Shown piece by piece: positions 5,903 through 60,347 of a stretch of 64,000 nt of DNA. Below the pieces are notes generated by a model that saw only the letters and a list, made by a program, of their open reading frames with translations, was not told the origin of the DNA and ran no database searches. Position 1 is the stretch's first letter. Each line of letters begins with the position of its first letter. This stretch comes from an uncultured Candidatus Saccharibacteria bacterium (GTDB lineage: Bacteria > Patescibacteriota > UBA1384 > DTJR01), in contig CAZAOT010000003.1 of the NCBI GenBank assembly GCA_964487045.1, positions 3,730 to 67,729 of the forward strand, read 5' to 3'. The position numbers were made by a program, and so were the translations under genes.

Positions 5903-5942
5903 CATACGATTGCAATCCAGAATACTCTCGAGGAGGGTTGTC

Positions 5943-6779
5943 ATGTACATTGGCAGACAGATGTATGATGAATCTGGTCTGAAGCTTTTGCCTGAGGTTG
6001 AGCTATGCTTTGGGCCGAGCGGGCAGTGGGCTGATCTAGCTAAGCTGCTTATTCTTTACAGCGAGCATGACCCCTATGACGCCTGGCGTCTCTGGTATCG
6101 GGCTATCGCTACCCAGCTTAGCTTTGAGCAGATGCTTGGGCTCGCTGGTCAGATGATAACGATCGCTACTCTTCGCCTCAGCAATGGCTTTGGCTCTTTC
6201 CCGGCTCCTCCTTCCCAAGATGCCCTAAGTTACTACCTGAGGGGTTCGAGGGTCTTGTCGGCTGCTGTCCGTCGGCTTGCTGCCTGGCAGTTCGACGGAG
6301 AAGGCAAGTACAGCTCTTTCTATGTGTTGCAGGATAAGATGCAGCTTGAGACCGCGCAGACTATCTATCGTCTGCCGTGGGATATGCCCTGCAACTGCCC
6401 GGAGGATCTCTCTGAAATTCTCGGGCAGTGTTGCGATGCTCTCGGGCGTTACGGTGTGGGTCCAGTCGGTAATCGTGAGTTCACGATCAATGTGCCTTTA
6501 CCATACGCTACCTGTACGACGCAGGTATCTTTCCAGTTTTACGCCACTGATGCCAACTGGATGCTTCATGGCGAGATTCCTTGCCCAGATATTGGTGTGC
6601 CAGAGATCTGGGTGAAGTCATCTGATCATGACGACGCACCTGAGTTGATCAGCTTCGGGGGTGGCAATCTCGCTGGCCTGGTGGCCCGCCTCGGTTTGCA
6701 TCCTACGATGACTCGGACGCAGATCAAGGACATTCTCTATACCCGCGTAGCTTACAGCTCGCATCCGCATAAGAGGTGA
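5943..6779 (+). CDS. Orphan protein A1 (278 aa) in a GC-rich island; no recognisable family
   Basis: Long ORF in markedly GC-rich DNA. SD-supported ATG at 5943 (the listed ORF begins at TTG 5874, which is the -35 box). Cys-rich patch CNCPEDLSEILGQCCD. Confidence 0.55.
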   Translation: MYIGRQMYDESGLKLLPEVELCFGPSGQWADLAKLLILYSEHDPYDAWRLWYRAIATQLSFEQMLGLAGQMITIATLRLSNGFGSFPAPPSQDALSYYLRGSRVLSAAVRRLAAWQFDGEGKYSSFYVLQDKMQLETAQTIYRLPWDMPCNCPEDLSEILGQCCDALGRYGVGPVGNREFTINVPLPYATCTTQVSFQFYATDANWMLHGEIPCPDIGVPEIWVKSSDHDDAPELISFGGGNLAGLVARLGLHPTMTRTQIKDILYTRVAYSSHPHKR

Positions 6780-9156: not shown

Positions 9157-9175
9157 ATGGCGGAGAGGGTGGGAT
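9157..9175 (-). repeat. Direct duplicate of the last 18 nt of tRNA-Ser (T-loop end + acceptor 3' strand + CCA)
   Basis: TGGCGGAGAGGGTGGGAT occurs at 9158-9175 and again at 9283-9300 (plus strand). Confidence 0.8.
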
Positions 9176-9245
9176 CCTCGGCAAGCTGGACAAAGTCCAC
9201 TTGCCTTGCGAACCAGTCGTCGTGGGTTCGATCCAGACCCACGCA
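9176..9245 (-). repeat. Conserved structured arm element between tRNA-Ser and its 3' duplicate; homologous to 47260-47336
   Basis: Minus-strand sequence ...CTGGATCGAACC...GTTCGCAAGGC-[GGCAAG...CTTGCC hairpin]-GAGG. The same blocks occur after tRNA-Gln, with a compensatory hairpin (GGCGAT...ATCGCC). Confidence 0.45.
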
Positions 9246-9282: not shown

Positions 9283-9372
9283 TGGCGGAGAGGGTGGGAT
9301 TCGAACCCACGAGACCCTTGCGAGCCCAACAGTTTTCGAGACTGTCCTGTTCAACCACTCCAGCACCTCTCC
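9283..9372 (-). tRNA. tRNA-Ser (anticodon CGA), long variable arm, CCA encoded
   Basis: Minus strand: GGAGAGG-TG-CTGG..AGTGGTTGAA..-ACAGT-CTCGAAA-ACTGT-long variable arm-GTGGG-TTCGAAT-CCCAC-CCTCTCC-G-CCA. Upstream promoter TTGATT-N17-TAATAT at 9385-9413 (minus). Confidence 0.8.
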
Positions 9373-9478: not shown

Positions 9479-10204
9479 CTAGTTAGATCGCATTTCGGCT
9501 ACCACGGTGCAAATCTGCTCGGGCGAAGGAGCGTGAGGCAGCTTGATCCGACCGAGGCAAAGCTCAGCTGTCTCGTCGATCCTCCCGCCCAAAAGCGTGG
9601 TCGTCTCGAGGATAGCCCTTGCCCCCTTGGGCAGCCACTCGTCCTCGAGCTTCTCGATGAAGCTGACCGCACCATCCTCGTCGAAGATCCCTCCTGGCTC
9701 TAGCTCGCAAAGCATTCCGATGAAGAAGTCCCCAGGCATAAGCTTCCAGAGTTCCTCGCGGAGCTCTGTTACCGACAAGACGAGGTGACACTTCGCGAAC
9801 ACCTTGCCGAGAAGTACATCTCGAAGTCCTTCGCCGTACATGCCAGAGCCGCAGAAGCTAGCGATAAGCGCTGTGCCACTTGGCGCGCCATGTGCCAAAT
9901 GAGGCGCTAGGATGTCCCCAAAATGCATATACGTATCGTGAGAAACAGCCTTGCCGGCAAGCGCCCGTCTAGCATCTTCGAACGAATGAGAGGTGACGAT
10001 CCTGTGGTCGTAGCAGCTTCGTGGAATGATCGGGATCCAACCGCTTAGCTGAACAGGAGCCATCTTTGGGTCTGGTGGGATTGCCCAGATGTAGAGCCTT
10101 TTCCCGCACGAGCAGCCCTGCCCGCTGTAGAAGAAGTCGTCATCCATCTCGGCCTTGATCGCATCGCGCTGCTCGCTGCGAATCCGTGCTCGGCTATGTG
10201 GCAT
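9479..10204 (-). CDS. Orphan protein B (about 241 aa from the SD-supported ATG; the ORF extends to 10252) in a GC-rich island
   Basis: GC-rich ORF. GGGAGGG SD 11 nt upstream of the ATG at 10204. No family recognised. Confidence 0.45.
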   Translation of the reverse strand: MPHSRARIRSEQRDAIKAEMDDDFFYSGQGCSCGKRLYIWAIPPDPKMAPVQLSGWIPIIPRSCYDHRIVTSHSFEDARRALAGKAVSHDTYMHFGDILAPHLAHGAPSGTALIASFCGSGMYGEGLRDVLLGKVFAKCHLVLSVTELREELWKLMPGDFFIGMLCELEPGGIFDEDGAVSFIEKLEDEWLPKGARAILETTTLLGGRIDETAELCLGRIKLPHAPSPEQICTVVAEMRSN

Positions 10205-10275
10205 TTTTCCAGCCCTCCCTCTGTAATGTGCGATTTGCGAAAAGAGTAGCACATCTGTAAGATAAGATCTAGTCT

Positions 10276-10926: not shown

Positions 10927-10953
10927 TTGACTTTCTGCGAGATTTGGTATAAT
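10927..10953 (+). promoter_or_regulatory. Promoter of cassette C (TTGACT-N15-TGgTATAAT extended -10)
   Basis: -35 at 10927-10932 and -10 at 10948-10953 with TGG upstream. Confidence 0.55.
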
Positions 10954-11037
10954 ATAACCAGTTCCGAGGGAACCTTGAATGATCGCAGAACGCGGCTGGT
11001 ACCAGCCGTAATCGCTAACTCCCATGGGAGGGAGATC

Positions 11038-11415
11038 ATGCCGCCCAACAGTCGCAAGGCAAGCGCCCCGCGTTATAGGGGGTGCGTTGCTCAGCACAAG
11101 GCGTTCGATGATATCTGCGCTCAGATGACGCCTGCCGAGAGGCAGGAGTTTCTGATCGGCATCGGCGTATGCATCGGCTCATCTGTCGAAGCTAGTCGCA
11201 CACGCTCGATGGTTCGCAGAGCAACAAAGGGGCTAATCGCTGACGGGTTTCATGTCGAAGCTGCCAGCGTATTGGTCTCGAACGGGATGAAGAAGGACGC
11301 ACTCGCCGCGGTCAAGGTAGGTCTTGCCTGTCACCCGAGCAAGAACGCCCAGGACCTCGAGGTCCGCATCCGGCTTGTCGAGTTGGAGAGCGCAGCCGAA
11401 AGGCTACCGTCGTGA
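11038..11415 (+). CDS. Orphan protein C (125 aa) in a GC-rich island
   Basis: SD GGGAGGGAG then ATG at 11038. The listed ORF start at 10900 lies upstream of the promoter. No family recognised. Confidence 0.5.
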   Translation: MPPNSRKASAPRYRGCVAQHKAFDDICAQMTPAERQEFLIGIGVCIGSSVEASRTRSMVRRATKGLIADGFHVEAASVLVSNGMKKDALAAVKVGLACHPSKNAQDLEVRIRLVELESAAERLPS

Positions 11416-11458
11416 CGCAAATTCAAGGTTCCCTCCCCAGCCACGCCTAGCGTGGCAC

Positions 11459-11494
11459 AAGGGGCACGGCCGATCACCGTGCCCCTTTTACTTT
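11459..11494 (+). terminator. Intrinsic terminator of cassette C
   Basis: AGGGGCACGGCCGATCACCGTGCCCCT hairpin followed by TTTACTTTG. Additional hairpin CCACGCCTAGCGTGG just before it. Confidence 0.6.
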
Positions 11495-11630
11495 GTCCTA
11501 ATTTTTTCTCCTATGGTAAAATAGAGTTTGGATTGTAGATATGTGACAAGCTGTCGCTTTAGCGACACCAAAATTAGAACTTAGTAATTAAAAATTAAAA
11601 ATTTGCCGTTAGCTTCTGAGGCAGATTTTA

Positions 11631-37586: not shown

Positions 37587-37615
37587 TTGACATTTAGTGT
37601 CTTTTATGGTATATT
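37587..37615 (+). promoter_or_regulatory. Promoter of cassette D (TTGACA-N17-TGgTATATT)
   Basis: -35 at 37587-37592 and -10 at 37610-37615. SD AAAGGGGTG before ATG 37684. Confidence 0.6.
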
Positions 37616-37683
37616 ACTTCGATCGCTTGGAACTGGATTTTATCCAGCCGGCGACGCAACTACCCTAAAGGGGTGTTTCATTC

Positions 37684-38832
37684 ATGGCTAAGATGATCGG
37701 GATTGTTCGGTTGGGTGGGGAGCATCTCGTCGCTGAGGACTCAACGTTCCTCATCGGCGAGCTCAACAATGGTGACGAGGTATTCGTCGCCGGTAAGCCC
37801 CGTGGCACTGCCCGGCGCGTCGCTGAGACGCTCGGCAAGGACCAGGTCTTCCTGGTCTGCGAACTGGTCGAAAACGACCGCGGTGGCCAGAAGTATCGGG
37901 TCACCGAACCCGTGCAGGTGCTCGGGCTGGCCGAGAGCTTCGGCTCCCGCAACATGCTGCCCGCGGCTCTGCCCGGGCGCTTCGAGGGTTGGCTCGACAT
38001 GCTCCGCGACGGCAAGTTGCGGAAGGTGCGGGTCCCCGCCGATCTGGCTCTGGAAGGTCCCGCCCTCGCCCCCTCGCCGACCACCCCGCCGACCGCCCTG
38101 GGCGCCGCGCTCGGGAAGGCCGGCATGAAGGCCACCGAGGCGCCCGCCACCGAGGCGCCGCAGTCCACGCTGATCGACAGCGCGGGTGCGGCCAAGATCA
38201 TCGCGGAGGGCATCAAGGCCCTCCGGCCGGTCACGAGCGCTCTCGTCGTTACCGACCAGGAGCGCGACGCGCTCCAGGAGGCGATCGGCGCCCGCTTCCC
38301 GCGGGCGGCATTCGACTCCAGCCAGGCTGCGTCGGCCCAGGCCAACATGGAGCGCGTGCTCCAGGACGTACAGCAGCGCCGCCGCGAGGCGGCCGAGCAT
38401 TTCTTCGCCGAACTCGCGTCGTTCTGCGAGGGCAATATGGCCCTCCAGCTCGGCGTCCTCGGTGGGGATCTGCCGACGCTCAACGAGAAGGGGAACCCCA
38501 CCTGGGGCTCCACTCTCGACGAGCTCCTCGGTACCATGTCCACCGCCGAGGCTGCTGTTCTCGGCGCGACCGATCTGCCGGGCTACCCCGAGCCGGACTT
38601 GGCCCAAGGTCGTGGCGATGACCAGCCCGAACCCCCGCCGGATCCCGAGGGCGACAAGCCCGAAGACGAAGCCGAGGCCGCCACGGCCGAGGAGGGCGTC
38701 CACCCCATCGCCGCTGCCCAGGAGGGTGGCGTCAAGGCTGAGAAGGCCGCGCCCGCGACTACCAAGAAGCCGGCGGCGCGCAAGCCTCGCAAGACGGCAG
38801 CCGAGAAGGCCGCGACCGGCACCGACGGCTAG
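37684..38832 (+). CDS. Orphan protein D (382 aa), very GC-rich, with a C-terminal Ala/Pro/Lys/Glu-rich histone-H1-like tail
   Basis: About 65-70% GC by eye. All six frames are open around it, so only the promoter/SD-supported frame is called. Tail ...KAEKAAPATTKKPAARKPRKTAAEKAATG. Confidence 0.5.
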   Translation: MAKMIGIVRLGGEHLVAEDSTFLIGELNNGDEVFVAGKPRGTARRVAETLGKDQVFLVCELVENDRGGQKYRVTEPVQVLGLAESFGSRNMLPAALPGRFEGWLDMLRDGKLRKVRVPADLALEGPALAPSPTTPPTALGAALGKAGMKATEAPATEAPQSTLIDSAGAAKIIAEGIKALRPVTSALVVTDQERDALQEAIGARFPRAAFDSSQAASAQANMERVLQDVQQRRREAAEHFFAELASFCEGNMALQLGVLGGDLPTLNEKGNPTWGSTLDELLGTMSTAEAAVLGATDLPGYPEPDLAQGRGDDQPEPPPDPEGDKPEDEAEAATAEEGVHPIAAAQEGGVKAEKAAPATTKKPAARKPRKTAAEKAATGTDG

Positions 38833-38878
38833 ATCCTAGCCGGTTTCGTCCAGTAAGGAGGCTGGACACATGAACTCT

Positions 38879-38918
38879 AGAGGCGCGACGTCATTTGACG
38901 GAGCGCCTCTTTTCTTTG
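38879..38918 (+). terminator. Intrinsic terminator of cassette D
   Basis: GAGGCGCGACGTCATTTGACGGAGCGCCTC hairpin followed by TTTTCTTTG. Confidence 0.6.
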
Positions 38919-38941
38919 CCCTCTATTCGCTATTCTCTATT

Positions 38942-40401: not shown

Positions 40402-40430
40402 TTGACTTTTGGGGCGTTTTGTGGTATATT
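40402..40430 (+). promoter_or_regulatory. Promoter of cassette E (TTGACT-N17-TGgTATATT)
   Basis: -35 at 40402-40407 and -10 at 40425-40430. About 150-nt structured leader with hairpin CCCTCGC-TTGA-GCGAGGG. Confidence 0.6.
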
Positions 40431-40586
40431 ATCTTGTTCACGATTAGGAGGGGAAAGATCTCTTGGTCGAGAACGTTGACAATTCGAACCCCCTCGCTTG
40501 AGCGAGGGAGACATGCCGGACGAGGTCTCATCCTCCTCGTCATTGCAGCAGCGCTGCCGGTAACCATCACCTAGGAGGTGATTCGG

Positions 40587-41597
40587 ATGAGTAAGATCGA
40601 CCCGCGTTTCGATGGTATGGTTGTGGATTCTGTAGAGCAGGTCGGGACTGTCCCGGCTGAGCTCATCGCTGCGTTCCCGGAGCTCGGCGACGCAATGTAT
40701 TGCGTCGTTGAAATAGCCCGTGGGCAGCGCCGCAACAAGTATGTTGCGGCTGTCCGGCGCCAGTGCGCAAGCGCCGACTTCCGGGACGGCAGTGGTCCAG
40801 GCCACTGCCATTGGTTCTTTGATGCGGACTACAAGTCCGTCAAGGAGCTCGTTCGCGCGACGCGGTGGGCTATGCCCGCCGTGACCGACATGAGCACGCG
40901 CCAGCTCGGCGCACTGCTCGTTGCTGCGATCCGTCGTGGCAACTGCGAAATCGTAGTTGGCGATGTTGTTGTCGCTAGCTACGGAGGCTTCCTCGAGGAG
41001 GCCCTTCGCGAAATGGTTCGCCGCTCGCAAGCGGCGAACAGCCTCAAGGACGAAGCCAGCCGTTGGCTGGCGCAGCACTTTGAGGACGAGTCCATCGCCG
41101 TTGATGGCGGCTGGACTCACCCGGCCATTGACTGGCTGGCGTGGGTATTCGCCAGTCGTCAGCGCGAAAGCGCATTTGGCGATCTCGGTGGGGAGGCGAA
41201 CCGCTGGGTTCGGGAAACGCCCATCACGGGCGGACCTGAGCAGTGGGGCTGCCTGCGGGGTTTGCCCGCCGTACGCACCGAGGTCCGGGCATACGAAGAT
41301 CGCGGCGCGGAGCCGCAGATCTACCTCCCCAACGGGGAGAATTTCTCCGTCCGCCGCCTCATCGGCGGTGGGTACTTCCGCCTCGCGGAGGATGGGGTCT
41401 ACGACCTCTTCCTGCGCCGCGGGGCGGCGGAGATCGGTGACAAGGGCCTGATGTGGGCCCGCGTCACTGAGGACGGAAAGGTTGTCGCGGCGGTCGATCC
41501 GCTGCACAACTATGGGGGTTTGGGCGAGTTTGCCTATACCCCCCTGATGGGGCGCCTGCACAAGGCTCTCCAGGCGGCCGTTGCTGCCGAACAGTAG
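40587..41597 (+). CDS. Orphan protein E (336 aa) in a GC-rich island
   Basis: SD AGGAGG (40573-40578) then ATG at 40587. No family recognised. Antisense 395-aa ORF judged spurious. Confidence 0.5.
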   Translation: MSKIDPRFDGMVVDSVEQVGTVPAELIAAFPELGDAMYCVVEIARGQRRNKYVAAVRRQCASADFRDGSGPGHCHWFFDADYKSVKELVRATRWAMPAVTDMSTRQLGALLVAAIRRGNCEIVVGDVVVASYGGFLEEALREMVRRSQAANSLKDEASRWLAQHFEDESIAVDGGWTHPAIDWLAWVFASRQRESAFGDLGGEANRWVRETPITGGPEQWGCLRGLPAVRTEVRAYEDRGAEPQIYLPNGENFSVRRLIGGGYFRLAEDGVYDLFLRRGAAEIGDKGLMWARVTEDGKVVAAVDPLHNYGGLGEFAYTPLMGRLHKALQAAVAAEQ

Positions 41598-41603
41598 GAA
41601 GCA

Positions 41604-41660
41604 CAGGCCGGTACCGAGTTATCCGCAAGGATGACAAGGTGCCGGCCTTCTGCATTTTAT
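41604..41660 (+). terminator. Intrinsic terminator of cassette E
   Basis: AGGCCGGTACC...GGTGCCGGCCT hairpin followed by TCTGCATTTTAT. Confidence 0.55.
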
Positions 41661-41690: not shown

Positions 41691-41719
41691 TTGACATTTG
41701 GCGGTATTTGTGCTATATT
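41691..41719 (+). promoter_or_regulatory. Promoter of candidate ncRNA E2 (TTGACA-N17-TGcTATATT)
   Basis: -35 at 41691-41696 and -10 at 41714-41719. Shares the 14-nt CTTGACATTTGGCG with the J promoter. Confidence 0.55.
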
Positions 41720-41725
41720 ACTCTC

Positions 41726-42082
41726 TTATGCTTCTTCAAGAAGAGTCAATCTTTTCTGAAGGGATATAAGTTCCCGATTCCAGTGGAGGGCCATCAGGAG
41801 AATGGCAGGTCGTCGGAAACGATAATCTAGCTGCTCCTCCAGTCTCGCGTTGAGACTGGAGATTAGGCCGACGCGGATGCGCGCCGGCTGTCACAGCCGA
41901 GGCTGAAGCAACCCATGAGGATTGACAAGTAATCCGACCCCGGTCGAAAGGCCATCAACAAGGTCGGATCGAGATCATGAACCATGGTTGATCATCAGCC
42001 GATTCGGCACAAAGGGAGACGCTTGCTTGACGCTTGCATCTCCCTTTTTCGTTAATCTAAAAAAGCCCTTTCGGGCTTTTCT
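41726..42082 (+). ncRNA. Candidate structured non-coding RNA (about 360 nt), promoter-to-terminator, GC-rich
   Basis: No ORF over 23 codons. Multiple perfect hairpins (CCAGTCTC..GAGACTGG, GGGAGACG..TCTCCC). Ends in terminator AAAAAAGCCCTTTCGGGCTTTTCT (42056-42082). No RNase P, tmRNA or SRP signature motifs found. Confidence 0.35.
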
Positions 42083-52970: not shown

Positions 52971-53624
52971 TTGCATGGAGGAGAGAGATTGAAGAGTGCC
53001 ATCTATATGCATCACTTCGCGCAGTCTGTTCTGCTGAAGCTTGGCGATCAGATCGCCGAGTTGCTTGATCGAGAGCTTCAAGCGTTGGTCGGATGTGCAT
53101 CAGATGTTCAGAGCCTGCGTGATCAACTTCAGGGTATGGTCAAGGTTAACCGTCACGAAGTAGAGCTGCCAGTTGTACCCGGGAATGAGAGCGTCTACCG
53201 ATGTGCGGGTTACAAGCTGGACGTACTTCCGGCACACGTGCAGTCGTGTCTTGACCTGCATGACGAATGCTCTGCCAGAGTAACCGAACGTATCTGTGAG
53301 TCGCTCCAGTCAATCCAGATCGGCTGTCCGCTGATCAACTACGCCCATGGCCAGCTGTACTTAGCTTGCGACACCGCCGGCTCCTGCGTGGAGTTGGCAA
53401 GGCTTGCTGTCGCACTCGACAGGAACTTCCCAGCGACGCACCAAACCCTGCCACTGCTAGCCGGGGATGAATGGCCTTGGCTGATGTGGGATAATGGCAA
53501 TCTGCACATGAACCATCCCTTCTCGGCCAGGGGACTATGGAAGCTTCAGGCGCTGGCCAAATCCATCAGGGAAGAGCTAAGGCCTGGGATGTATGGATAC
53601 GCCAGAGCCGGCGGCACACGCTGA
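52971..53624 (+). CDS. Orphan protein H1 (about 205-217 aa; start at TTG 52971 or ATG 53007), GC-rich, Cys/His-rich
   Basis: Long ORF in a GC-rich island. Terminator hairpin GGGGACA...TGTCCCC + ACCTTTTTTA at 53661-53700. Confidence 0.45.
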   Translation: MHGGERLKSAIYMHHFAQSVLLKLGDQIAELLDRELQALVGCASDVQSLRDQLQGMVKVNRHEVELPVVPGNESVYRCAGYKLDVLPAHVQSCLDLHDECSARVTERICESLQSIQIGCPLINYAHGQLYLACDTAGSCVELARLAVALDRNFPATHQTLPLLAGDEWPWLMWDNGNLHMNHPFSARGLWKLQALAKSIREELRPGMYGYARAGGTR

Positions 53625-53715
53625 TGAAGGCAGGTAGACTATCTGCTTACTCAAGGGGACATCCTCCAGACGGAGCTTGTCCCCACCTTTTTTATATTTA
53701 TTTCGGCCCAATACA

Positions 53716-53744
53716 CTTGAATTTTTATATACAAATTGCTATTA
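53716..53744 (+). promoter_or_regulatory. Promoter of H2 (TTGAAT-N17-TATTAT)
   Basis: -35 at 53716-53721 and -10 at 53739-53744. SD GGGAGG at 53830-53835. Confidence 0.45.
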
Positions 53745-53840
53745 TTTCTTCTTCTGTAATAGGTGGTCATTGACATTTGTATGGAGAAGAAACACCCGCA
53801 TCGACTTTGGTCGACGGGTTCAAGAAACGGGAGGTATACG

Positions 53841-54377
53841 ATGGTGGATCTTGCGGTTGTGAGTCTTGACCTGCGTAAGCAGGCCATGCTGAAGCTTCAA
53901 GATCTAGGTGAAAGCGAGATTCACTTAGGTCTTGTCAGAAGCTTTGTCGAAAGGCTTCATCATTCTGTCCCAATGACCTTGCTCGAGCGCGATCGGCTTG
54001 TTGACGCGCTTGGGGGGTTGCATGCAAGCCGTATAGACTTTCGCTCCTATGTGTCGCCGCGTCGGCTGGTCGCATTTCTTGATGTCAGTTTGCAGAATCT
54101 ATCCCAGGATGATCTGCCGGATTCGGTCAATGTGCATGGGATCGACTGGCTATGTGAGCAGGCAGAAAGCTGCGACCAGGCAGAATCAGAAGTGGACGTT
54201 CTCGATGCTGAGGCTTTTGCGATCGACCAGCCGAAGGTCGGTTCGGCAAGCGCCATGACTCACGCTGAAGCGCGGGTCAAAGTAGCTGAGTACCGAGAGG
54301 CTGCTGAGGCGCTTGAGCGGCAGATTCCGCTCGATCTTCAGGTGGGTCACATCGAGGACGGAGACGAAGACAAGTAG
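53841..54377 (+). CDS. Orphan acidic protein H2 (178 aa), GC-rich
   Basis: ATG at 53841 after GGGAGGTATACG. No family recognised. Confidence 0.45.
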   Translation: MVDLAVVSLDLRKQAMLKLQDLGESEIHLGLVRSFVERLHHSVPMTLLERDRLVDALGGLHASRIDFRSYVSPRRLVAFLDVSLQNLSQDDLPDSVNVHGIDWLCEQAESCDQAESEVDVLDAEAFAIDQPKVGSASAMTHAEARVKVAEYREAAEALERQIPLDLQVGHIEDGDEDK

Positions 54378-54401
54378 GTCGAGGTTGCGGCGGATCTATA
54401 G

Positions 54402-54447
54402 GGGCTGGAATGCGCTTTGCGCTTCCAGTCCCTTTTTCTTTTTTTAA
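54402..54447 (+). terminator. Intrinsic terminator of H2
   Basis: GGGCTGGAATGCGCTTTGCGCTTCCAGTCCC hairpin followed by TTTTTCTTTTTTT. Confidence 0.6.
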
Positions 54448-54470
54448 AATCCTGTAAATTGAAGATAAAT

Positions 54471-57400
54471 ATGAATAAGCCATTTGTTCACCTGCATGTT
54501 CACTCTCATTATTCACTCCTTGATGGTCTGGGTACTCCTGCCCAGATCATTGAGCGTGCCAAAGAGCTCGGTATGAACTCGGTCGCTTTGACCGATCACG
54601 GATCTATGTACGGCGTGATTGAATTTTATAAAGCAGCCAAAGCAGCTGAAATAAAGCCGATTATCGGTATGGAGGCTTATGTCGCTCCAAGATTACTTAG
54701 CGAGAAAGTTTCAAAATTAGATTCAAATCCATATCACTTGATTTTGCTGGCCAAAAATTTGGATGGGTATTTAAACTTGCTTCGACTTTCTTCGATTGGT
54801 CACTTGGAAGGATTCTATTATAAGCCCCGAGTCGATAAGGTTACGCTAAAAAAATATTCAAAGGGATTGATCGCGACCTCTGCTTGTTTGGCCGGTGAAC
54901 TTTCTCGAATGCTTTTATCAAATGATGAAGAATCAGCAAGGCGCGCTCTTGGCGAATACAAAGAAATATTTGGTGATGACTTCTATATCGAACTTCAGGA
55001 TCATCCCGACATCAGGGATCAGGGGCTAGCTAACGAGAAATTGATCGCCTTGGCCAAAGAAACTAATACTCCGATGACGGTGGCTTGCGACTCGCACTAT
55101 ATTCGCAAGGAAGACCGGGCGGCTCACGATGTGCTGGTTTGCGTTCAGATCGGCAAGACGGTCGATGACCCAACGCGCATGACATATGACGGCGACTTCT
55201 CACTGCGCGATCCTAAGGAGCTTTACGAGGCCTTTAAAGACGTGCCGGAGGCGCTAGAGAACACGCAGAAGATTGCTGATATGTGCGCCTTAGAAATTCC
55301 GTTTGAAGAAAATCTCCTGCCAATTTTCAAAATTGACTCAAAGCAGACACCCGATGAATTTTTACGCGAGCAGTGTCTAAAGGGCTTGCCGGAGCGTTAT
55401 CCAGACCTTGATGAGACTAAGAAAAAAGAATTGATGGAGAGGCTCGACTATGAACTCGGCGTGATCGCCAAGATGGGTTTTTCAAGTTACTTCTTGATCG
55501 TTGCTGACTATGTGAAATGGGCTAAATCGAGCGGAATAATGGTCGGCCCGGGTAGAGGTTCGGCAGCAGGGGCGCTTGTGACGTATCTGACATATATCAC
55601 TGATGTTGATCCGATCAGATATGGACTACTTTTTGAGAGATTTTTGAATCCTGATCGATTGGAAATGCCGGACATCGATCTTGACTTTGCTGACCATAGG
55701 CGTGGTGAGGTACTAAACTATGTCGTTAATAAATATGGCGAGGACAGGGTTGCTGGAGTTATTACATTTGGAACGATGGCGGCGCGAGCTGCGGTGCGAG
55801 ATGTCGGTCGCGCATTAGGGATGCCTTATGCGGAGGTCGATGCAATCTCCAAAGTCATTCCTCCTCCTGTTCAAGGCCGCCATATTCCTCTTGAAAAATC
55901 GATCAAAAATGCTCCGGAGCTCAGAGAATTTTATACAAAAGACCCACGTGCCAAACGACTACTCGACATGGCAATTAAGCTGGAGGGGACGGTCAGGCAT
56001 GCTGGACAGCACGCATCGGCCTTCGTAATCACCCAAGATGAGCTAGTCTGTTACGTACCACTTCAGCAAGCTCAAAAAGAAGGGGTTAAGCAAGTTACTC
56101 AATATTCAATGTATCCAGTCGCTGAACTTGGACTTTTGAAAATGGACTTCTTGGGCCTATCAAACTTAACAATTATTGAGCGTGCCCTCGGAATTATTGA
56201 AGCGGTTGATGGCGAGAAAATTGATATTTTCAATCTTCCGCTAGATGATTTAAAAACTTTTCATCTGCTCGGACGAGCTGAAACAACCGGAGTATTTCAA
56301 CTCGAGTCCTCGGGAATGAAGCGATATATTAAGGACTTACAGCCCACCTCAATCGACGATGTTGCTGTGATGGTTGCCCTATATCGCCCAGGTCCGATGC
56401 AATTTATTGACTCATTTATTAAACGAAAGAACGGCCGCGAGAAAATCGAATATCCTCATGAAGCAACTAAGTCCGCCTTAGAAGTAACCTATGGAATTCC
56501 TGTTTATCAGGAGCAGGTCATGCAGATTTCCAAGGACATGGCCGGGTTTACCGGTGGTGAGGCTGATAAGCTTCGAAAAGCGATGGGTAAGAAGATCGCT
56601 AAATTGATGGCTGAGATGAAGGAGAAATTCATCAAAGGCTCGGTAAAAAATGGCGTTTCACAAAAAGACGCAGAGAAAGTTTTCTCAATGCTTGAGGATT
56701 TTGCTGCTTATGGATTTAACAAATCTCATGCTGTTTGTTACGCCATGATTGCTTACCAAACGGCGTATCTTAAGGCAAACTATCCTCAGTCGTTTATGGC
56801 CGCACTTCTAACGAGCGATCTTGACGATACTGATCGCATCGGAATTGAGATCGAAGAATGCAACAAAATGGGAATCCAGGTCTTGCCGCCTGACGTTAAT
56901 GAATCTTTCGTCGATTTTGGTGTAGTTAAAGATACGGGAAATATTCGTTTTGGCTTAGCGGCGATCAAGGGGATCGGGGAGTCGCCAGCGCGAATTATTA
57001 CCAGAGAGCGAAAGAAAAACGGGCCATTTAAGTCACTTGAAGATTTTATTGATCGCATGATCAAAACCGATGTTGAAGGGGTGACTGACCGATCGGTCTT
57101 GAACAAGAAGATTCTCGAGAGCTTAGCTCGCTCAGGAGCGCTTGATAACTTGGCAGAGAGAAATCAGATTTTGGAGGGCATGGAAATCATTACCAAACGC
57201 ATTCAAGAATCGTCTAAGCAGAAGAAGACCGCGCAGATAGGCTTGTTTGGCGAAGTGTTGTCGGCTGACATTGAACTTGGCAAGCTGGAATTACCGGAGG
57301 TAGAACCAGCGACTCAGGCCGATCGGCTTGCTTGGGAAAAAGCTCATCTTGGGATTTATTTATCAGAGCATCCACTCAAGGAAGTTGGGGGATTACTTCG

Positions 57401-58037
57401 GGCAGCAGTACCCAATCAAATTGCCAAACTTGATCTTACGATGGAGGGAAAACGTGCTAAGATCGCCGGAATTCTTTCGGAGGTCAAGAAGATCAATACT
57501 AGAAGCGGTCAGCAAATGGCTTTTGCTAAAATAGAAGACCTTTCTGGAAAAACCGAAATATTAGTCTTCCCGAAGCTTCTTGCTGACACTAATGAGCTAT
57601 GGCAGAGCGACAATATTCTGATAGTTTCCGGAAAAATTTCGACCAAAGATAATGAGGTTAAGCTTTTAGCGGATGCAGCTGAGAAATTTGATCCGTCCAA
57701 AGTCGATGCAAGCAAAGTTATAACCGTGTCCGATGATGATGAAATTGTCGAGATCGACTTGGGAGAGGAGCCGGAGCTAGATAGTTTAGAATCTTCTTTA
57801 ACTAAAGCATTTAAGGATGGGAAGGTATTGTTTGAAAAAGACCTTGAGCTATATGTAATTCTGACAGGCAAAGTTGATAAGGATAAATTGGTCAGTTTAA
57901 AGGAAATTTTTGAAAAAAATCCAGGGGATAAAAAGGTTGTTCTAGCTTATAAGAAAAATGGTCATTTTGAATTCAAGAAAACCAAAGTACTCGTGGGGAA
58001 GTTAAAAGAAGAAGAGATAAAGAAGGTTTTGGGGTGA
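54471..58037 (+). CDS. dnaE: DNA polymerase III alpha subunit
   Basis: PHP domain HLHVHSHYSLLDG at the N-terminus. About 1190 aa. The ATG at 54471 is preferred over the ORF-track start at 54417. Confidence 0.9.
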   Translation: MNKPFVHLHVHSHYSLLDGLGTPAQIIERAKELGMNSVALTDHGSMYGVIEFYKAAKAAEIKPIIGMEAYVAPRLLSEKVSKLDSNPYHLILLAKNLDGYLNLLRLSSIGHLEGFYYKPRVDKVTLKKYSKGLIATSACLAGELSRMLLSNDEESARRALGEYKEIFGDDFYIELQDHPDIRDQGLANEKLIALAKETNTPMTVACDSHYIRKEDRAAHDVLVCVQIGKTVDDPTRMTYDGDFSLRDPKELYEAFKDVPEALENTQKIADMCALEIPFEENLLPIFKIDSKQTPDEFLREQCLKGLPERYPDLDETKKKELMERLDYELGVIAKMGFSSYFLIVADYVKWAKSSGIMVGPGRGSAAGALVTYLTYITDVDPIRYGLLFERFLNPDRLEMPDIDLDFADHRRGEVLNYVVNKYGEDRVAGVITFGTMAARAAVRDVGRALGMPYAEVDAISKVIPPPVQGRHIPLEKSIKNAPELREFYTKDPRAKRLLDMAIKLEGTVRHAGQHASAFVITQDELVCYVPLQQAQKEGVKQVTQYSMYPVAELGLLKMDFLGLSNLTIIERALGIIEAVDGEKIDIFNLPLDDLKTFHLLGRAETTGVFQLESSGMKRYIKDLQPTSIDDVAVMVALYRPGPMQFIDSFIKRKNGREKIEYPHEATKSALEVTYGIPVYQEQVMQISKDMAGFTGGEADKLRKAMGKKIAKLMAEMKEKFIKGSVKNGVSQKDAEKVFSMLEDFAAYGFNKSHAVCYAMIAYQTAYLKANYPQSFMAALLTSDLDDTDRIGIEIEECNKMGIQVLPPDVNESFVDFGVVKDTGNIRFGLAAIKGIGESPARIITRERKKNGPFKSLEDFIDRMIKTDVEGVTDRSVLNKKILESLARSGALDNLAERNQILEGMEIITKRIQESSKQKKTAQIGLFGEVLSADIELGKLELPEVEPATQADRLAWEKAHLGIYLSEHPLKEVGGLLRAAVPNQIAKLDLTMEGKRAKIAGILSEVKKINTRSGQQMAFAKIEDLSGKTEILVFPKLLADTNELWQSDNILIVSGKISTKDNEVKLLADAAEKFDPSKVDASKVITVSDDDEIVEIDLGEEPELDSLESSLTKAFKDGKVLFEKDLELYVILTGKVDKDKLVSLKEIFEKNPGDKKVVLAYKKNGHFEFKKTKVLVGKLKEEEIKKVLG

Positions 58038-58077
58038 TTTTTTTGAGAGCCTTCAGCTCGCATGTAATGTTAACAAC

Positions 58078-58110
58078 CCAGGGGACACTTTCGGTGCGTC
58101 CCCTAGGTTT
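58078..58110 (+). terminator. Intrinsic terminator after dnaE
   Basis: AGGGGACACTTTCGGTGCGTCCCCT hairpin followed by AGGTTTTT. Confidence 0.55.
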
Positions 58111-58329
58111 TTAACGATTTCCTCACCCTCCTAACGCCCTTTGTGTAGCTCTTTTTGTTGAACCTTCTGGAATTCATCCTCGAACAAGTTTGTCGAGGTA
58201 ATCAGTTCCAGCTTTCAACATCAAAGAGCATCTACTTTTAAAGTCTCGAAGCCCGCTTCTTCGACTTTTTATTAATTTTTTTGCTTCCAAGGGTTGATTT
58301 TTTTTAAAAATATGATAAAGTTTTTTTAC

Positions 58330-58640
58330 ATTATTGTTTCCGGTCCCTAGGGACCAACGAGCGTTCCCTCACCGAGGGAGCACCACAACCAGGCCTGAGG
58401 GGCGGCGGAATCCAGAGCCGTCGCCTCTCAGGGAAAAACTAGGCTTCGCGTCAACGCCCTCCTCCAGAGAATAGGCGCGAAGATGCACCACCGCGGGCTG
58501 CGTGCGCGATATGGCGCAGCCGGGCCAAGGCGGGCGACTGGCCTCCTTTGAAGGGGTCGATGGCTGGTCGCCCGTCTCCCAAACACACAAGGGCTGACTT
58601 TCTTGCGATCGTCAGCCCTATTTGATTCTCGTCCCGTTAG
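58330..58640 (+). ncRNA. Candidate structured ncRNA Ia (about 300 nt), GC-rich, plus strand
   Basis: A 15-bp stem with two G·U pairs (CCTGAGGGGCGGCGG / CCGTCGCCTCTCAGG). A 12-bp stem with two G·U pairs (GGGCGACTGGCC / GGCTGGTCGCCC). These are plus-strand-specific. 3' hairpin GGGCTGAC..GTCAGCCC followed by TATTTG. No convincing ORF. Confidence 0.3.
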
Positions 58641-58736
58641 AGATAAGTAATATTTTATCAACCGAATTATGCTTCAAAATTTTAAACTAATACAAGAACC
58701 ATTTTTATAAAAAATTTCTAACGGGGTAAACAGGTG

Positions 58737-58765
58737 TTGACTTCTGTAAATTTTCATATTAATAT
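58737..58765 (+). promoter_or_regulatory. Promoter of candidate ncRNA Ib (TTGACT-N17-TAATAT)
   Basis: -35 at 58737-58742 and -10 at 58760-58765. Confidence 0.5.
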
Positions 58766-58774
58766 TTATGTTAC

Positions 58775-59792
58775 GAGTGTAGGATGATCGCTAAGATCGT
58801 TCTACGCAGAACGTGGAAAGGGGTTTTGCTTATGATTCTCTGTGGTTCCATCGCCATCGTCTGACAACCGGCGCCTCTAACGATCTCACGATCGTAAGAG
58901 AAAGGGGATCTAGTGATCAGAGCGAGTCCGTAACCACGCCTTTCACATCGCCGGCTGAAATGCCGGCCCTGACCAAACCCAAGCTGTACCAATTAGTCGC
59001 AAAGTTGCTGATCGACGGACTTCTCTTGCGGCGAAAGCCGCCCCGACCGGCCAATGGGCCAGAAGACAAGAGGCTGAAGAAACATGCGTGCACGTTGTCG
59101 CGGCCACACCGTCGTATCCACCTTCTCCTTCGAGATCGCGCTGGTTCTCTAGGGAAACTCGCAAACCCGGGGATGCAGATCTCTGAAAGTCTCTGCACCA
59201 GCCATCTTGCTAGAACCCGCAAGGGCCGACTTCAAACGCTCCACCCTAACAAGGGACGGGAAAGCTGGCCAATCCGCGGCGGGGGACGCCGGCGCGCACT
59301 AGGCCGTAAGAGCTAGGGATGCGCGGCGGCTAAACGCCCGCCAAGCCCGAGTCGAAGGACCCGGAATGGAGCAAGTAGCCAAAGCAGTGACGGAGCGGAC
59401 ATAGTTCGCGCTCCCTATATCTGCTTGCGCTGGCATTGCCAAGGCACGCCGAGCCTGCGTGGCTCACAGAGTGCTTCATGGCGAGAAATGCATGCCCATT
59501 CCGGCTCTGCAATCCTACACATTAGGACGATGGGGTTGCGCCTGGAAAAGCATCAGGGTGTGATGCGAGCGAGGCTGATCGCTGGAATGGCCCTGGATAG
59601 AGGGTTTTGGCGAGGATGTCTTGCGGTGAGGCTGGTCCCTTCGGGGACTCCCCAGCCGGTGGCTGGGGAGCTAGTCTACTCATTTCGCCTTGGTGCGTTT
59701 GCCCAGGCGGGATTTTCCATAGGGCTCGAGTGTTTCACTCGGGCCCAAGTTGTTTTATAAAAGCAAAAAAGTGCCTCACGGGCACTCTTTTT
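58775..59792 (+). ncRNA. Candidate large structured ncRNA Ib (about 1 kb), GC-rich, promoter-to-terminator
   Basis: No ORF longer than 167 codons in about 65% GC DNA, and the longest is Arg-rich and GTG-initiated. cUUCGg tetraloop hairpin GGTCCCTTCGGGGACT. Hairpin CCCCAGCC-GGT-GGCTGGGG. Strong terminator AGTGCCTCACGGGCACT followed by CTTTTTT at 59766-59792. Confidence 0.35.
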
Positions 59793-59810
59793 TAATTAAT
59801 AAAATTATTA

Positions 59811-60347
59811 TTACTGATTGGTTGGTACTGGTGGAACTGGTGGCAGGGGAACAGATGAACTTTGAGCTGAGGCAGTAGAACTGGCCGCAGCGGTTGAGCT
59901 AGCAACCGGTGTTCCTGGGATTGGCGGCGTACCAATATCACCCGTGCCGGAATTTGATGAGCCTAGGTAAGGACATTCGGTTTCGCCTTTTTGTTCTACG
60001 CATCTCCAATATTTGATCGTTTGGTTAAGATCAAGCGAACTGACAAGTCCAGCGCTTTCACTTTGAGCATCAACTAGATTATATTCAGGTTCGATTTTTA
60101 GCCAGTGTACAACGATAGAGTTGATGTCTAGCGCGCTTACCACTCCATCATCCAAAATATCGCCGCTTATCCTGGGTGGATTAGGAACAAATGGTTTTTC
60201 TGAGGGAATTCCTGATGGATCTGGAGGAGTAGGTGGGTTAGAGTCAGCTGAAGGCTGGCTAGACCATACCACGTAGCTCAAAACACCTGCCAAAACAACA
60301 ACGCTGATGGCAGAAATAAATGTTAATAGTATCGCTTTTTTAGTCAT
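59811..60347 (-). CDS. Secreted protein with a dockerin-like repeat pair and a Pro/Ser/Ala-rich tail
   Basis: Signal anchor. GDILDDGVVSALDINSIV and LVSSLDLNQTIKYW resemble dockerin type I Ca-binding repeats. Confidence 0.45.
   Translation of the reverse strand: MTKKAILLTFISAISVVVLAGVLSYVVWSSQPSADSNPPTPPDPSGIPSEKPFVPNPPRISGDILDDGVVSALDINSIVVHWLKIEPEYNLVDAQSESAGLVSSLDLNQTIKYWRCVEQKGETECPYLGSSNSGTGDIGTPPIPGTPVASSTAAASSTASAQSSSVPLPPVPPVPTNQ

What the first reader, a model, noticed from the sequence alone, without database searches (positions are those of the whole stretch)
58737..59792. About 1 kb promoter-to-terminator GC-rich RNA with UUCG tetraloop and no credible ORF: candidate large ncRNA
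A strong promoter (TTGACT-N17-TAATAT) and a strong terminator bracket about 1020 nt of about 65% GC sequence. The only long ORF is GTG-initiated, Arg-rich and lacks an SD. RNA-specific motifs are present: the cUUCGg tetraloop hairpin GGTCCCTTCGGGGACT and the 8-bp hairpin CCCCAGCC-GGT-GGCTGGGG. Large structured ncRNAs of this size (OLE/GOLLD/ROOL class, group I/II introns) are rare and usually functionally interesting. I saw no rRNA, RNase P or tmRNA signatures, and no intron-encoded protein is present.
Basis: seen in the sequence. Interest (0 to 1): 0.7.

Follow-up and report, generated by a model that had tools for sequence, protein, structure and literature searches.

The report
Fast-evolving orphan noncoding RNA gene
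A roughly 1 kb stretch downstream of the DNA polymerase gene dnaE in a tiny-genome (Patescibacteria/CPR) bacterium is a self-contained gene for a hairpin-rich RNA that makes no protein, belongs to no known RNA family, changes very fast between related bacteria, and has an unknown job.

Summary
The anatomy is real. A sigma-70-like promoter (58737-58765), about 990 nt of GC-enriched sequence and two intrinsic terminators (59722-59746, 59770-59786) form one transcription unit. GC is 57.7%, not about 65%, against 45.6% for the window.

It is noncoding. There is no period-3 signal, no Pfam hit, and its longest ORF has no relative among 5.8 billion proteins. No Rfam 15 family matches, including OLE, GOLLD, ROOL, HEARO and group I/II introns.

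In about 20 related Patescibacteria, the same slot (between dnaE and a convergent small-protein gene) holds 1-3 promoter-to-terminator GC-rich noncoding units of 250-1200 nt. Almost none share sequence.

Two true distant homologues were found (L166/L167 and L172). They keep two core blocks and a 3' module, with helices preserved by compensatory changes. The UUCG loop is not conserved. A strain whose flanking genes differ by about 5% differs at 1 of 487 RNA positions.

A strand-specific single-stranded motif, GCAAUCAUC, recurs across the units.

Verdict: this is a genuine, lineage-restricted, fast-evolving ncRNA gene of a previously undescribed type. It is not an ornate, deeply conserved RNA. 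I favour a trans-acting RNA that displays exposed G-poor motifs, but its function is unproven.

The parts
58737..58765 (+). Sigma-70-type promoter TTGACT-N17-TAATAT; inferred transcription start near 58772
   Evidence: 9 of 12 consensus positions; coordinates. Comparable TTGAC-N17-TAnnnT promoters precede the syntenic units in L001, L002, L003, L005, L084 and L085. The pattern is enriched in the window: 9 matches against 1.7 expected.
58772..59757 (+). Body of the noncoding RNA, about 990 nt to terminator 1 (about 1020 nt if read through to terminator 2)
   Evidence: GC 57.7%. No period-3 signal. MFE -421.8 kcal/mol, z -4.65 on the + strand against -2.72 on the - strand.
58777..58807 (+). Predicted 5' hairpin GUGUAGGAUGAUC/GAUCGUUCUACGC. 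It contains GAUGAUCGC, the complement of the recurring GCGAUCAUC motif. Nucleotides 58777-58785 are alternatively complementary to 59512-59520.
   Evidence: This rests on prediction and complementarity only. No homologue covers this region.
58815..58864 (+). SD-like purine run GGAAAGGGG (58815-58823), followed 8 nt later by a 10-codon mini-ORF (58832-58864, MILCGSIAIV)
   Evidence: An SD-like run at +10 to +70 is seen in about 19 of 23 units. Translation was not tested and conservation could not be tested.
59274..59345 (+). Conserved core block A, a GC-rich multi-hairpin: CCGCGGCGGGGGACGCCGGCGCGCA...GCGGCGGCUAAACGCCCGCC
   Evidence: Conserved in L172 (nhmmer 59273-59538, E=9.4e-5). Its two signature strings occur only in the window lineage and L172 among 1.65 Mb of fetched loci.
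59486..59538 (+). Conserved core block B: helix 59495-59502/59525-59534 closing a 22-nt loop that displays CUGCAAUCCUACAC (59507-59520), followed by GAUGGGGUUG
   Evidence: The helix is kept in L172 and L166 with U.G and G.U changes. One search gives the distribution of the block B core.
59634..59668 (+). Two adjacent hairpins: GGUCCC-UUCG-GGGACU (59634-59649) and CCCCAGCC-GGU-GGCUGGGG (59650-59668)
   Evidence: The stems are kept in L166 with different loops and partly different stem sequence. The only substitution in strain L164 (C59656U) converts a C-G pair to U.G.
59669..59685 (+). G-poor single-stranded linker AGCUAGUCUACUCAUUU, a relative of the GCAAUCAUC motif
   Evidence: Aligned with CAUCUAUCAUUCU in L166. 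Similar to GUCAUCAUUUCGC in L084a.
59682..59713 (+). Helix H2 (11 bp, AUUUCGCCU-GG / CC-AGGCGGGAU)
   Evidence: Window against L166: 2 pairs changed on both sides, 3 on one side, 0 broken.
59722..59757 (+). Terminator 1 (GGGCUCGAGUG-UUU-CACUCGGGCCC) with an AAGUUGUUUUAUAA tail, preceded by the conserved CCAUAGGGC
59770..59792 (.). Terminator 2, bidirectional, shared with the convergent small-protein gene (59811-60347, - strand)
   Evidence: Its loop differs in strains L164 and L169 (2 substitutions and 1 indel).
58294..58625 (+). Neighbouring second unit of the same kind: promoter TTGATT-N16-TAAAGT (58294-58321), about 290 nt at about 60-63% GC, terminator 58591-58618
   Evidence: z -6.2; P3 p=0.79. 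No Rfam hit.

Best explanation
**What it is.** It is a real, independently transcribed, noncoding RNA gene of about 990 nt. It is one of a previously undescribed set of GC-enriched, hairpin-dense RNA genes. These occupy a fixed slot in one clade of Patescibacteria: between the 3' end of dnaE and a convergent small-protein gene.

**How it evolves.** The body of the RNA changes very fast. Hairpins are replaced, inserted and lost. A few elements are kept: two core blocks, a 3' module, and exposed G-poor single-stranded motifs of the GCAAUCAUC / CUACUCAUUU type.

**Most likely mode of action (inferred, not shown).** It is a stable trans-acting RNA. It uses the exposed motifs (the 22-nt loop at 59503-59524 and the linker at 59669-59685) to pair with other RNAs or to hold a protein. 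The GC-rich hairpins serve as scaffold and as protection against nucleases. In design this is closer to a long regulatory or sponge RNA than to a ribozyme-like ornate RNA.
For: **Shown**
- Promoter and two terminators.
- No coding signal, whereas all GC-rich coding cassettes in the window show one.
- No Pfam hit, and the ORF translation has no protein relative.
- The same layout sits at the syntenic slot in about 20 relatives, none with period-3.
- Distant homologues L166/L167 (E=7.5e-9) and L172 (E=9.4e-5) lie at the same slot. Blocks A and B are conserved. Helices are kept by compensatory changes: H2 has 11 bp, 2 double and 3 single changes, and none broken.
- Other unit families also keep 5' domains with no broken pairs at about 75% identity.
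- In strain L164 there is 1 change in 487 RNA positions against 46 in 960 positions of the flanking genes (Fisher p=1e-7).
- The motif GC[ACG]AUCAU[CU] occurs 10 times in 8 of 23 units, against 0.4 expected. It is about 20-fold enriched over flanking DNA and strand-specific, with 10 sense and 1 antisense occurrences.
- All units fold much better than shuffles (mean z -6.4).

**Inferred**
- Trans action through the exposed motifs.
Against: - No expression data exist.
- Only three lineages carry a recognisable homologue, so covariation rests on 2-3 sequences and on RNAalifold structures that favour consistent pairs.
- Fold-energy z-scores do not discriminate: a coding control scores -5.9, and there is no consistent strand asymmetry.
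- GNRA/UNCG loops are not enriched.
- The near-identity in L164 could reflect a recent recombinational transfer rather than constraint.
- The window RNA itself carries only degenerate versions of the GCAAUCAUC motif.
- No target or partner protein has been identified. GAUGAUUGC-like sites are not enriched in the window.
- The motif was first spotted by eye, so its statistics are post hoc.
Confidence: 0.55

Rival explanations
1. It is a transcribed but functionless remnant. Under this view it is a decayed GC-rich accessory cassette, once protein-coding or foreign DNA, that has kept its promoter and terminators.
For: - The window holds about 7 GC-rich promoter-to-terminator cassettes that are coding ORFans.
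- The RNA has the same architecture: promoter, about 45 nt, an SD-like run, then a 10-codon ORF.
- Sequence is not conserved between genera.
- Within the species, a 9-nt net deletion is tolerated in L163.
Against: - No trace of codon periodicity remains here or in about 20 syntenic units.
- The RNA differs at 1 of 487 positions while flanking genes differ by about 5%.
- Helices are kept by compensatory changes in L166 and L172.
- A shared strand-specific motif exists.
- GC content and hairpin density are maintained across genera, although neutral sequence in a 45% GC genome should decay towards the background.
Confidence: 0.15
2. It is a large ornate structured RNA with defined tertiary architecture, a new class in the sense of OLE, GOLLD or ROOL. 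It would act as a ribozyme or as the core of an RNP.
For: - Its size and its elevated GC in an AT-richer genome fit.
- It folds with z -4.7 to -6.2.
- It has conserved blocks A and B and helix H2.
- It contains one UUCG loop and one GAAA loop.
Against: - No Rfam match.
- Conservation is limited to about 200-300 nt in 2-3 lineages.
- Units in sister genera cannot be aligned, and covariance models do not cross-detect them.
- Unit length ranges from 250 to 1200 nt.
- Only about 10% of tetraloops are GNRA/UNCG, with no strand bias.
- The UUCG loop is not conserved.
Confidence: 0.12
3. It is an mRNA whose function lies in small peptides, possibly a type I toxin-like module. The long structured RNA would control translation through pairing between the 5' SD region and downstream sequence.
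For: - An SD-like run precedes a hydrophobic 10-aa ORF, MILCGSIAIV.
- The 5' segments 58777-58785 and 58841-58853 are complementary to 59512-59520 and 59528-59540.
- Some sister units carry plausible small ORFs. One example is the 51-aa membrane-like ORF in L085a, which also has a 13-bp perfect 5'-3' complementarity.
- The units are tandem and variable in copy number at a hot spot, as type I loci are.
Against: - The 10-aa ORF is too short for known type I toxins, and its conservation could not be tested.
- Mini-ORFs in sister units differ in length and sequence, or are absent.
- The long-range helices score no better than shuffles when taken individually.
- No antisense RNA promoter was found.
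- 1 kb is 3-5 times longer than known type I toxin mRNAs.
Confidence: 0.1
4. It is a DNA-level feature rather than an RNA. Under this view it is hairpin-rich GC-rich spacer DNA produced or kept by a local process at a recombination hot spot, such as biased gene conversion or palindrome-generating template switching.
For: - Excess self-complementarity is similar on both strands in many units.
- There is no tetraloop strand bias.
- GC enrichment is shared with the neighbouring coding cassettes, which keep GC3 of 0.8-0.9 across genera.
Against: - Promoters and terminators are consistently placed and oriented in all units.
- The shared motif is strand-specific.
- G.U-compatible substitutions are seen.
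- There are no repeats, target-site duplications or att-like flanks.
Confidence: 0.06

Closest known systems
Large bacterial ncRNAs of unknown or recently studied function (OLE, GOLLD, ROOL, raiA, HEARO/omega RNA)
   Same: It is a long (about 1 kb), independently transcribed, ORF-free RNA. It is GC-enriched relative to an AT-richer genome and found in an uncultivated lineage. This is the signature used in GC-rich intergenic-region screens (PMC6429828, PMC11109978).
   Different: - No covariance-model match to any of them.
- No broadly conserved nucleotides or architecture, and only 2-3 lineages with detectable homology.
- No associated protein gene, whereas HEARO has IscB and OLE has the oap genes.
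- Few GNRA/UNCG loops.
Trans-acting regulatory and sponge RNAs with exposed short motifs (CsrB/RsmZ-type protein sponges; seed-bearing sRNAs, including 3'-end-derived ones)
   Same: - It has its own promoter and an intrinsic terminator.
- Its sequence and length evolve fast, around short single-stranded motifs displayed between or on hairpins.
- The 3' module (G-poor linker, stem-loop, linker, terminator) looks like a classical sRNA.
   Different: - It is 3-10 times longer.
- The motif (GCAAUCAUC) is not GGA or any known seed.
- No partner has been identified. CsrA, Hfq and ProQ were not examined here.
- The motif is present in only about a third of units, and only in degenerate form in this RNA.
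Phage 'morons' and accessory gene cassettes
   Same: It is a self-contained promoter-payload-terminator unit of deviating GC content, sitting between conserved genes. The window holds about 10 such units.
   Different: - The payload here is noncoding.
- The host sequence is a cellular chromosome with housekeeping neighbours.
- The slot, and at least one cassette, are inherited vertically across genera.
- No phage, plasmid or viral-contig relatives were found.
Type I toxin mRNAs (hok-like, with 5'-3' fold-back)
   Same: The 5' SD-like element and tiny ORF, the candidate long-distance 5'-3' pairing, and the tandem, variable-copy units in an intergenic hot spot.
   Different: The length of about 1 kb, the absence of a credible toxin ORF, the absence of an antisense RNA, and pairing that is not statistically supported.
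REP/BIME extragenic palindrome arrays
   Same: GC-rich hairpin-dense extragenic sequence between convergent genes.
   Different: The hairpins are all unique, with no repeat family in the window. The unit also has its own promoter.

Membership tests
Any Rfam 15 family (OLE, GOLLD, ROOL, raiA, HEARO, group I and II introns, RNase P, tmRNA, 6S, SRP and others) | A covariance-model score at or above the family's gathering threshold | tested here: not met
   - Whole window at gathering threshold: only two tRNAs elsewhere.
- Region 57900-60000 at E<=10: only chance-level hits, the best being terminator-like sRNA models at E>1.
- Syntenic loci of 17 relatives: nothing except one tRNA.
Group II intron | A conserved domain V/VI and 5' GUGYG, usually with an intron-encoded RT or flanking exons | tested here: not met
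   No Intron_gpII or group-II-D1D4 hit. No ORF with a Pfam domain. The unit has its own promoter and terminators and does not interrupt a gene.
tmRNA / tRNA-like | A tRNA-like domain and a tag reading frame | tested here: not met
   ARAGORN found nothing in 58000-59900.
Ornate large structured ncRNA (generic class) | Many conserved nucleotides and covarying long-range helices across diverse genomes | tested here: not met
   - Homology is detectable only in L166/L167 and L172.
- There is no similarity to about 20 other syntenic units.
- Covariance models R1-R3 find no cross-family hits.
- Local helices do covary.
Ornate large structured ncRNA (generic class) | Enrichment of RNA-specific loop motifs (GNRA, UNCG) on the transcribed strand | tested here: not met
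   14 of 139 tetraloops on the sense strand and 11 on the antisense strand (binomial p=0.69).
Protein-coding gene or recent pseudogene | Codon periodicity, a conserved reading frame and protein homologues | tested here: not met
   - P3 p=0.37.
- No Pfam hit.
- The 167-aa ORF has only itself in the protein collection.
- The L163 variant has a 9-nt net deletion plus 1 substitution, and L164 has a single C-to-U change.
Independent bacterial ncRNA gene (sRNA-like transcription unit) | Its own promoter and a Rho-independent terminator, with no ORF | tested here: met
   The layout is conserved in relatives. Expression itself cannot be tested with these tools.
Independent bacterial ncRNA gene (sRNA-like transcription unit) | Purifying selection or structure-preserving evolution | tested here: inconclusive
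   1 of 487 RNA positions differs against 46 of 960 flanking positions in L164. Compensatory changes are seen in H2 and the block B helix. Only 2-3 sequences are available, and recombination is not excluded.
Sponge or seed-type regulatory RNA | A repeated or conserved exposed short motif, plus an identified partner (protein or target RNA) | tested here: inconclusive
   The motif is enriched and strand-specific across units and is displayed in a loop or linker here. No partner was found, and complement sites are not enriched in the window.
Type I toxin-antitoxin mRNA | A small hydrophobic toxin ORF of about 20-60 aa, an antisense RNA, and a significant 5'-3' fold-back | tested here: not met
   There is only a 10-aa ORF behind the SD-like run. 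No antisense promoter was found. Long-range helices are not better than shuffles.
Mobile element, phage or plasmid cargo | Relatives in phage, plasmid or viral collections; flanking repeats or att sites | tested here: not met
   No match in phages, plasmids or viral contigs. No flanking direct repeats.

The most novel reading that the evidence does not exclude
The RNA would be one member of a genome-wide system of 'hypervariable GC-rich cassettes' in this Patescibacteria clade. These are fixed chromosomal slots between housekeeping genes. Each carries a strong promoter, a GC-rich payload (an orphan protein or a hairpin-dense RNA) and terminators.

The ends (promoter, UTRs, terminator, GCAAUCAUC motif) are conserved. 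The payload evolves extremely fast, yet keeps a GC content far above that of the genome over genus-level time.

This pattern would point to an arms-race or host-interaction module of an episymbiont, for example RNAs and proteins tuned to, or delivered into, a GC-rich host. It could also point to a local GC-biased diversification mechanism. The noncoding units might additionally serve as raw material for orphan genes.
Probability: 0.2. Interest if true: 0.8.

Novelty: new variant of a known kind. Interest (0 to 1): 0.55.

Why it matters
Patescibacteria have tiny genomes with little room for waste. This clade nevertheless keeps 0.3-2 kb of strongly promoted, GC-enriched, noncoding sequence at one fixed site. 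The window as a whole spends roughly 12-15% of its length on orphan GC-rich cassettes.

If the RNA is functional, it adds a lineage-specific regulatory or scaffold RNA to organisms in which almost no ncRNA biology is known. It also shows that screens based on GC-rich intergenic regions can find RNAs that evolve too fast for family-based annotation.

The wider cassette pattern is harder to explain by simple horizontal transfer followed by amelioration. It shows vertical inheritance, very fast divergence and maintained high GC. It may bear on how episymbionts generate novelty.

If the RNA is not functional, the locus still marks an unusual mutational or recombinational hot spot.

Tried and rejected
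- **Known RNA families.** Rfam at gathering and at E<=10 on the window and on 17 relatives gave nothing. ARAGORN gave nothing.
- **Protein-coding or pseudogene.** Pfam, period-3 analysis and a translated search were all negative.
- **Phage, plasmid or viral origin.** Searches with blastn, tblastn and DNA or peptide pattern scans were all negative.
- **Paralogues or repeats.** No paralogues in the window, and no flanking repeats.
- **Fold-energy z-score as proof of RNA structure.** Rejected as non-discriminating. The coding control scores z -5.9 and strand asymmetry is inconsistent.
- **GNRA/UNCG enrichment.** Absent.
- **Shared core by k-mers.** An unbiased k-mer search for a core across units found only promoter- and terminator-related words.
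- **Cross-detection between unit families.** Three covariance models found only their own training lineages.
- **A universal 5'-3' closing helix.** It is suggestive in several units (L002, L003, L005, L085a). Individually it is no better than shuffles.
- **Targets of the motif's complement in the window.** Not enriched.
- **Literature.** Searches for GC-rich ncRNAs or cassettes in Patescibacteria found nothing relevant.
Full report
**1. What is there**

The window is a 45.6% GC chromosome segment of a Patescibacteria/CPR bacterium.
- DnaE (54417-58037) is 82% identical to that of an unnamed MAG. It is 70-72% identical to MAGs labelled 'WS2 ADurb.Bin280' and 'Saccharibacteria'.
- The neighbours are housekeeping genes: an HU-like protein, DnaX, GluRS, L19, EF-P and Ddl.

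The finding's anatomy is present.
- Promoter TTGACT-N17-TAATAT lies at 58737-58765.
- Two intrinsic terminators lie at 59722-59746 and 59770-59786. The second is bidirectional and shared with the convergent gene 59811-60347.
- The two named hairpins are at 59634-59649 and 59650-59668.
- The transcript would be about 990 nt (58772 to about 59757).
- Its GC content is 57.7%, not about 65%. Only local windows reach 62-65%.

**2. It is noncoding and in no known RNA family**

- GC content shows no three-base periodicity (P3 p=0.37). Every GC-rich coding cassette in the same window does show it (p from <0.002 to 0.036), as does dnaE.
- The ORFs have no Pfam domain.
- The 167-aa ORF translation retrieves only its own cluster from 5.8 billion proteins.
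- Rfam 15 (4227 models) gives nothing at gathering thresholds and only chance-level hits at E<=10.
- ARAGORN finds no tRNA or tmRNA.
- The RNA is therefore not OLE, GOLLD, ROOL, HEARO, raiA, RNase P, tmRNA, or a group I or II intron.

**3. The locus in relatives**

I fetched the dnaE-downstream region from about 20 related genomes and metagenome contigs.
- Nearly all carry one to three units with the same layout: a TTGAC-type promoter, 250-1200 nt at 55-65% GC, then one or two terminators. They sit between dnaE and the same convergent small-protein gene.
- None of these islands shows period-3, and none has an ORF spanning it.
- They fold far better than dinucleotide shuffles (mean z -6.4).
- The window itself has two units. 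A 290-nt unit at 58294-58625 precedes the 1-kb one.
- The units share almost no sequence. nhmmer and sensitive blastn find only four partial pairs: L001/L084b and L090/L091 in the 5' 160-200 nt, and L085/L099 at the promoter and terminator ends.
- In the two 5' domains, all 34 predicted pairs are kept at about 75% identity. One to two pairs changed on both sides and four to eight on one side. Internal hairpins are replaced by different hairpins.
- Covariance models built from these domains do not detect any other unit.

**4. Homologues of this RNA**

*Same-species contigs*
- L161-L163 are identical, except for a 9-nt net deletion and one substitution in L163.
- Strain L164 has flanking genes that differ from the window at 46 of 960 positions, mostly at third codon positions. 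It differs at 1 of 487 RNA positions (Fisher p=1e-7). That single change, C59656U, turns a C-G pair into U.G. L169 is from the same lineage.

*Distant homologues*
- I followed homologues of the adjacent small protein into short assemblies. This yielded two true distant homologues at the syntenic site.
- L166/L167 matches window 59329-59769 by nhmmer at E=7.5e-9. L172 matches 59273-59538 at E=9.4e-5.
- Four elements are conserved:
  - block A (59274-59345);
  - block B (59486-59538), a helix 59495-59502/59525-59534 closing a 22-nt loop that displays CUGCAAUCCUACAC, followed by GAUGGGGUUG;
  - the two hairpins at 59634-59668;
  - a 3' module made of a G-poor linker (59669-59685), helix H2 (59682-59713), CCAUAGGGC and the terminator.
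- H2 keeps all 11 pairs, with two double and three single compensatory changes.
- The stem of the UUCG hairpin is kept, but its loop is CACAUCC in L166. The tetraloop is therefore not a conserved feature.
- A model of the 3' module finds no further members.

**5. Shared short motifs across units**

- The motif GC[ACG]AUCAU[CU] occurs 10 times in 8 of 23 units, against 0.4 expected from dinucleotide shuffles.
- It is about 20-fold denser than in 211 kb of flanking DNA. It is strand-specific, with 10 sense and 1 antisense occurrences.
- It usually lies in a G-poor single-stranded stretch after a strong hairpin, some 100-500 nt before the terminator.
- This RNA carries degenerate versions: GCAAUCCUACAC in the block B loop and CUACUCAUUU in the 3' linker. 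The complement GAUGAUCGC lies in its 5' hairpin.
- An SD-like purine run sits at +10 to +70 in about 19 of 23 units. Here it is GGAAAGGGG, followed by a 10-codon ORF.
- In several units that run is complementary to a CCUCC- or AUCAUCC-like stretch near the 3' end. Taken one by one, these helices are no better than shuffles.
- The motif was first noticed by eye, so its statistics are post hoc. The size of the enrichment makes chance unlikely.

**6. Arguments against an 'ornate' RNA**

- Conservation is shallow, and unit length varies five-fold.
- Only about 10% of tetraloops are GNRA or UNCG, with no strand bias.
- The fold-energy z-score is no better than that of a GC-rich coding control.
- The picture is of many generic stable hairpins carrying a few conserved exposed elements.

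**7. Context: a window full of GC-rich cassettes**

- About ten promoter -> GC-rich -> terminator units lie between housekeeping genes, nine of them on the + strand.
- Seven are coding ORFans with no Pfam, PHROG or PADLOC family.
- The 339-aa protein has no relative in 5.8e9 proteins. The 382-aa protein has one clear relative and one weak match (E=3.4e-6) in 1.8e9 representatives.
- That one relative (41% identity over 164 aa) sits in the same slot, NDK | cassette | M16 peptidase, in a related MAG. It is also GC-rich (66% GC, GC3 0.82) in a 45-50% GC backbone, and it keeps the promoter, 5' UTR and 3' UTR sequence.
- At least that coding cassette is therefore not a recent import. It is inherited vertically, diverges very fast and stays GC-rich. 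By analogy the same may hold for the others, and I read the RNA units in the same light.

**8. Interpretation**

*Shown*
- It is a self-contained noncoding transcription unit.
- The site and layout are conserved across a clade.
- Local helices evolve in a structure-preserving way.
- Similarity within the species is strong.
- A strand-specific motif is shared across units.

*Inferred*
- The RNA acts in trans through its exposed G-poor elements, by pairing with RNAs or by holding a protein. The hairpin body would act as a stabilising scaffold that is free to change.

*Confidence*
- I give about 0.55 to 'functional lineage-specific ncRNA of this design'. The specific trans-acting mechanism deserves much less.
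- Rivals: a decayed cassette (0.15), an ornate RNP or ribozyme-type RNA (0.12), a small-peptide or type I toxin-like mRNA (0.10), and a DNA-level hot-spot product (0.06).

**9. Novelty and score**

- No known family fits, and the literature searches found no description of such RNAs or cassettes in Patescibacteria.
- As a thing, it is a new kind of bacterial ncRNA gene, which I class as a new variant of a known kind.
- As a pattern, the hypervariable, persistently GC-rich cassettes at fixed slots may be more unusual. That is the novel case (probability about 0.2).
- Interest is 0.55. The locus is real and odd, but function and expression are untested and covariation rests on very few sequences.

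Noticed in passing
window 58294-58625 (+): A second, smaller noncoding unit lies directly upstream of the finding. It has promoter TTGATT-N16-TAAAGT, about 290 nt at about 60-63% GC, and a terminator at 58591-58618. It folds with z -6.2, has no period-3 signal (p=0.79) and no Rfam hit.
   Followed up: partly
window 9479-10252(-), 10927-11500, 37587-38930, 40402-41660, 47419-48250, 52916-53690, 53716-54410: There are seven GC-rich (55-70% GC) single- or two-gene cassettes, each with its own strong promoter (TTGACnTTT...TGGTATATT type) and terminator. They encode proteins with no Pfam, PHROG or PADLOC family. The two that were searched against the large protein collections have almost no relatives there.
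   Followed up: partly
window 37587-38930 and L170 2900-3960: The 382-aa cassette protein has one clear relative (41% identity over 164 aa). It sits at the same syntenic slot in a related MAG, is also GC-rich (GC3 0.82 against 0.90 here), and has conserved promoter, 5' UTR and 3' UTR. Its 5' UTR hairpin differs in sequence. This cassette is vertically inherited, diverges very fast and keeps high GC in a 45% GC genome.
   Followed up: partly
window 41691-42050 (+): A third unit runs from promoter to terminator, about 330 nt at 53% GC, with no ORF of note and no Rfam hit. It has a GAUCAUC motif, a short hairpin and a terminator at its 3' end. Weak period-3 signal (p=0.004) leaves coding status open.
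   Followed up: partly
window 58040-58260; L085 about 5990-6130; L081 about 5930-6030: A MITE-like repeat lies between the dnaE stop codon and the first RNA unit. It shares 75-84% identity with elements at the same place in relatives. All three same-species Logan contigs break at 58237, which suggests it is repeated in the genome.
   Followed up: no
window 48115-48123 (+), 58783-58791 (+), 10978-10986 (+): The only exact GCAAUCAUC in the window lies inside coding cassette 47419-48250, about 130 nt before its terminator. Near-complements (GAUGAUCGC, AAUGAUCGC) lie in the 5' regions of the 1-kb RNA and of cassette 10927-11500. This hints at RNA-RNA contacts between cassettes, but the numbers are too small to test.
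   Followed up: no
window 9160-9245, next to tRNA 9286-9372 (-): This stretch repeats the 3' acceptor and T-arm sequence of the neighbouring tRNA gene but then diverges. It was not called by Rfam. It could be a degenerate tRNA duplicate or a remnant.
   Followed up: no
L085 6180-6490 (unit L085a): A 290-nt sister unit carries a 51-aa ORF with a hydrophobic N-terminus behind a good SD. It also has a perfect 13-bp complementarity between its 5' end and a site 58 nt from its 3' end. This layout is reminiscent of type I toxin mRNAs.
   Followed up: no
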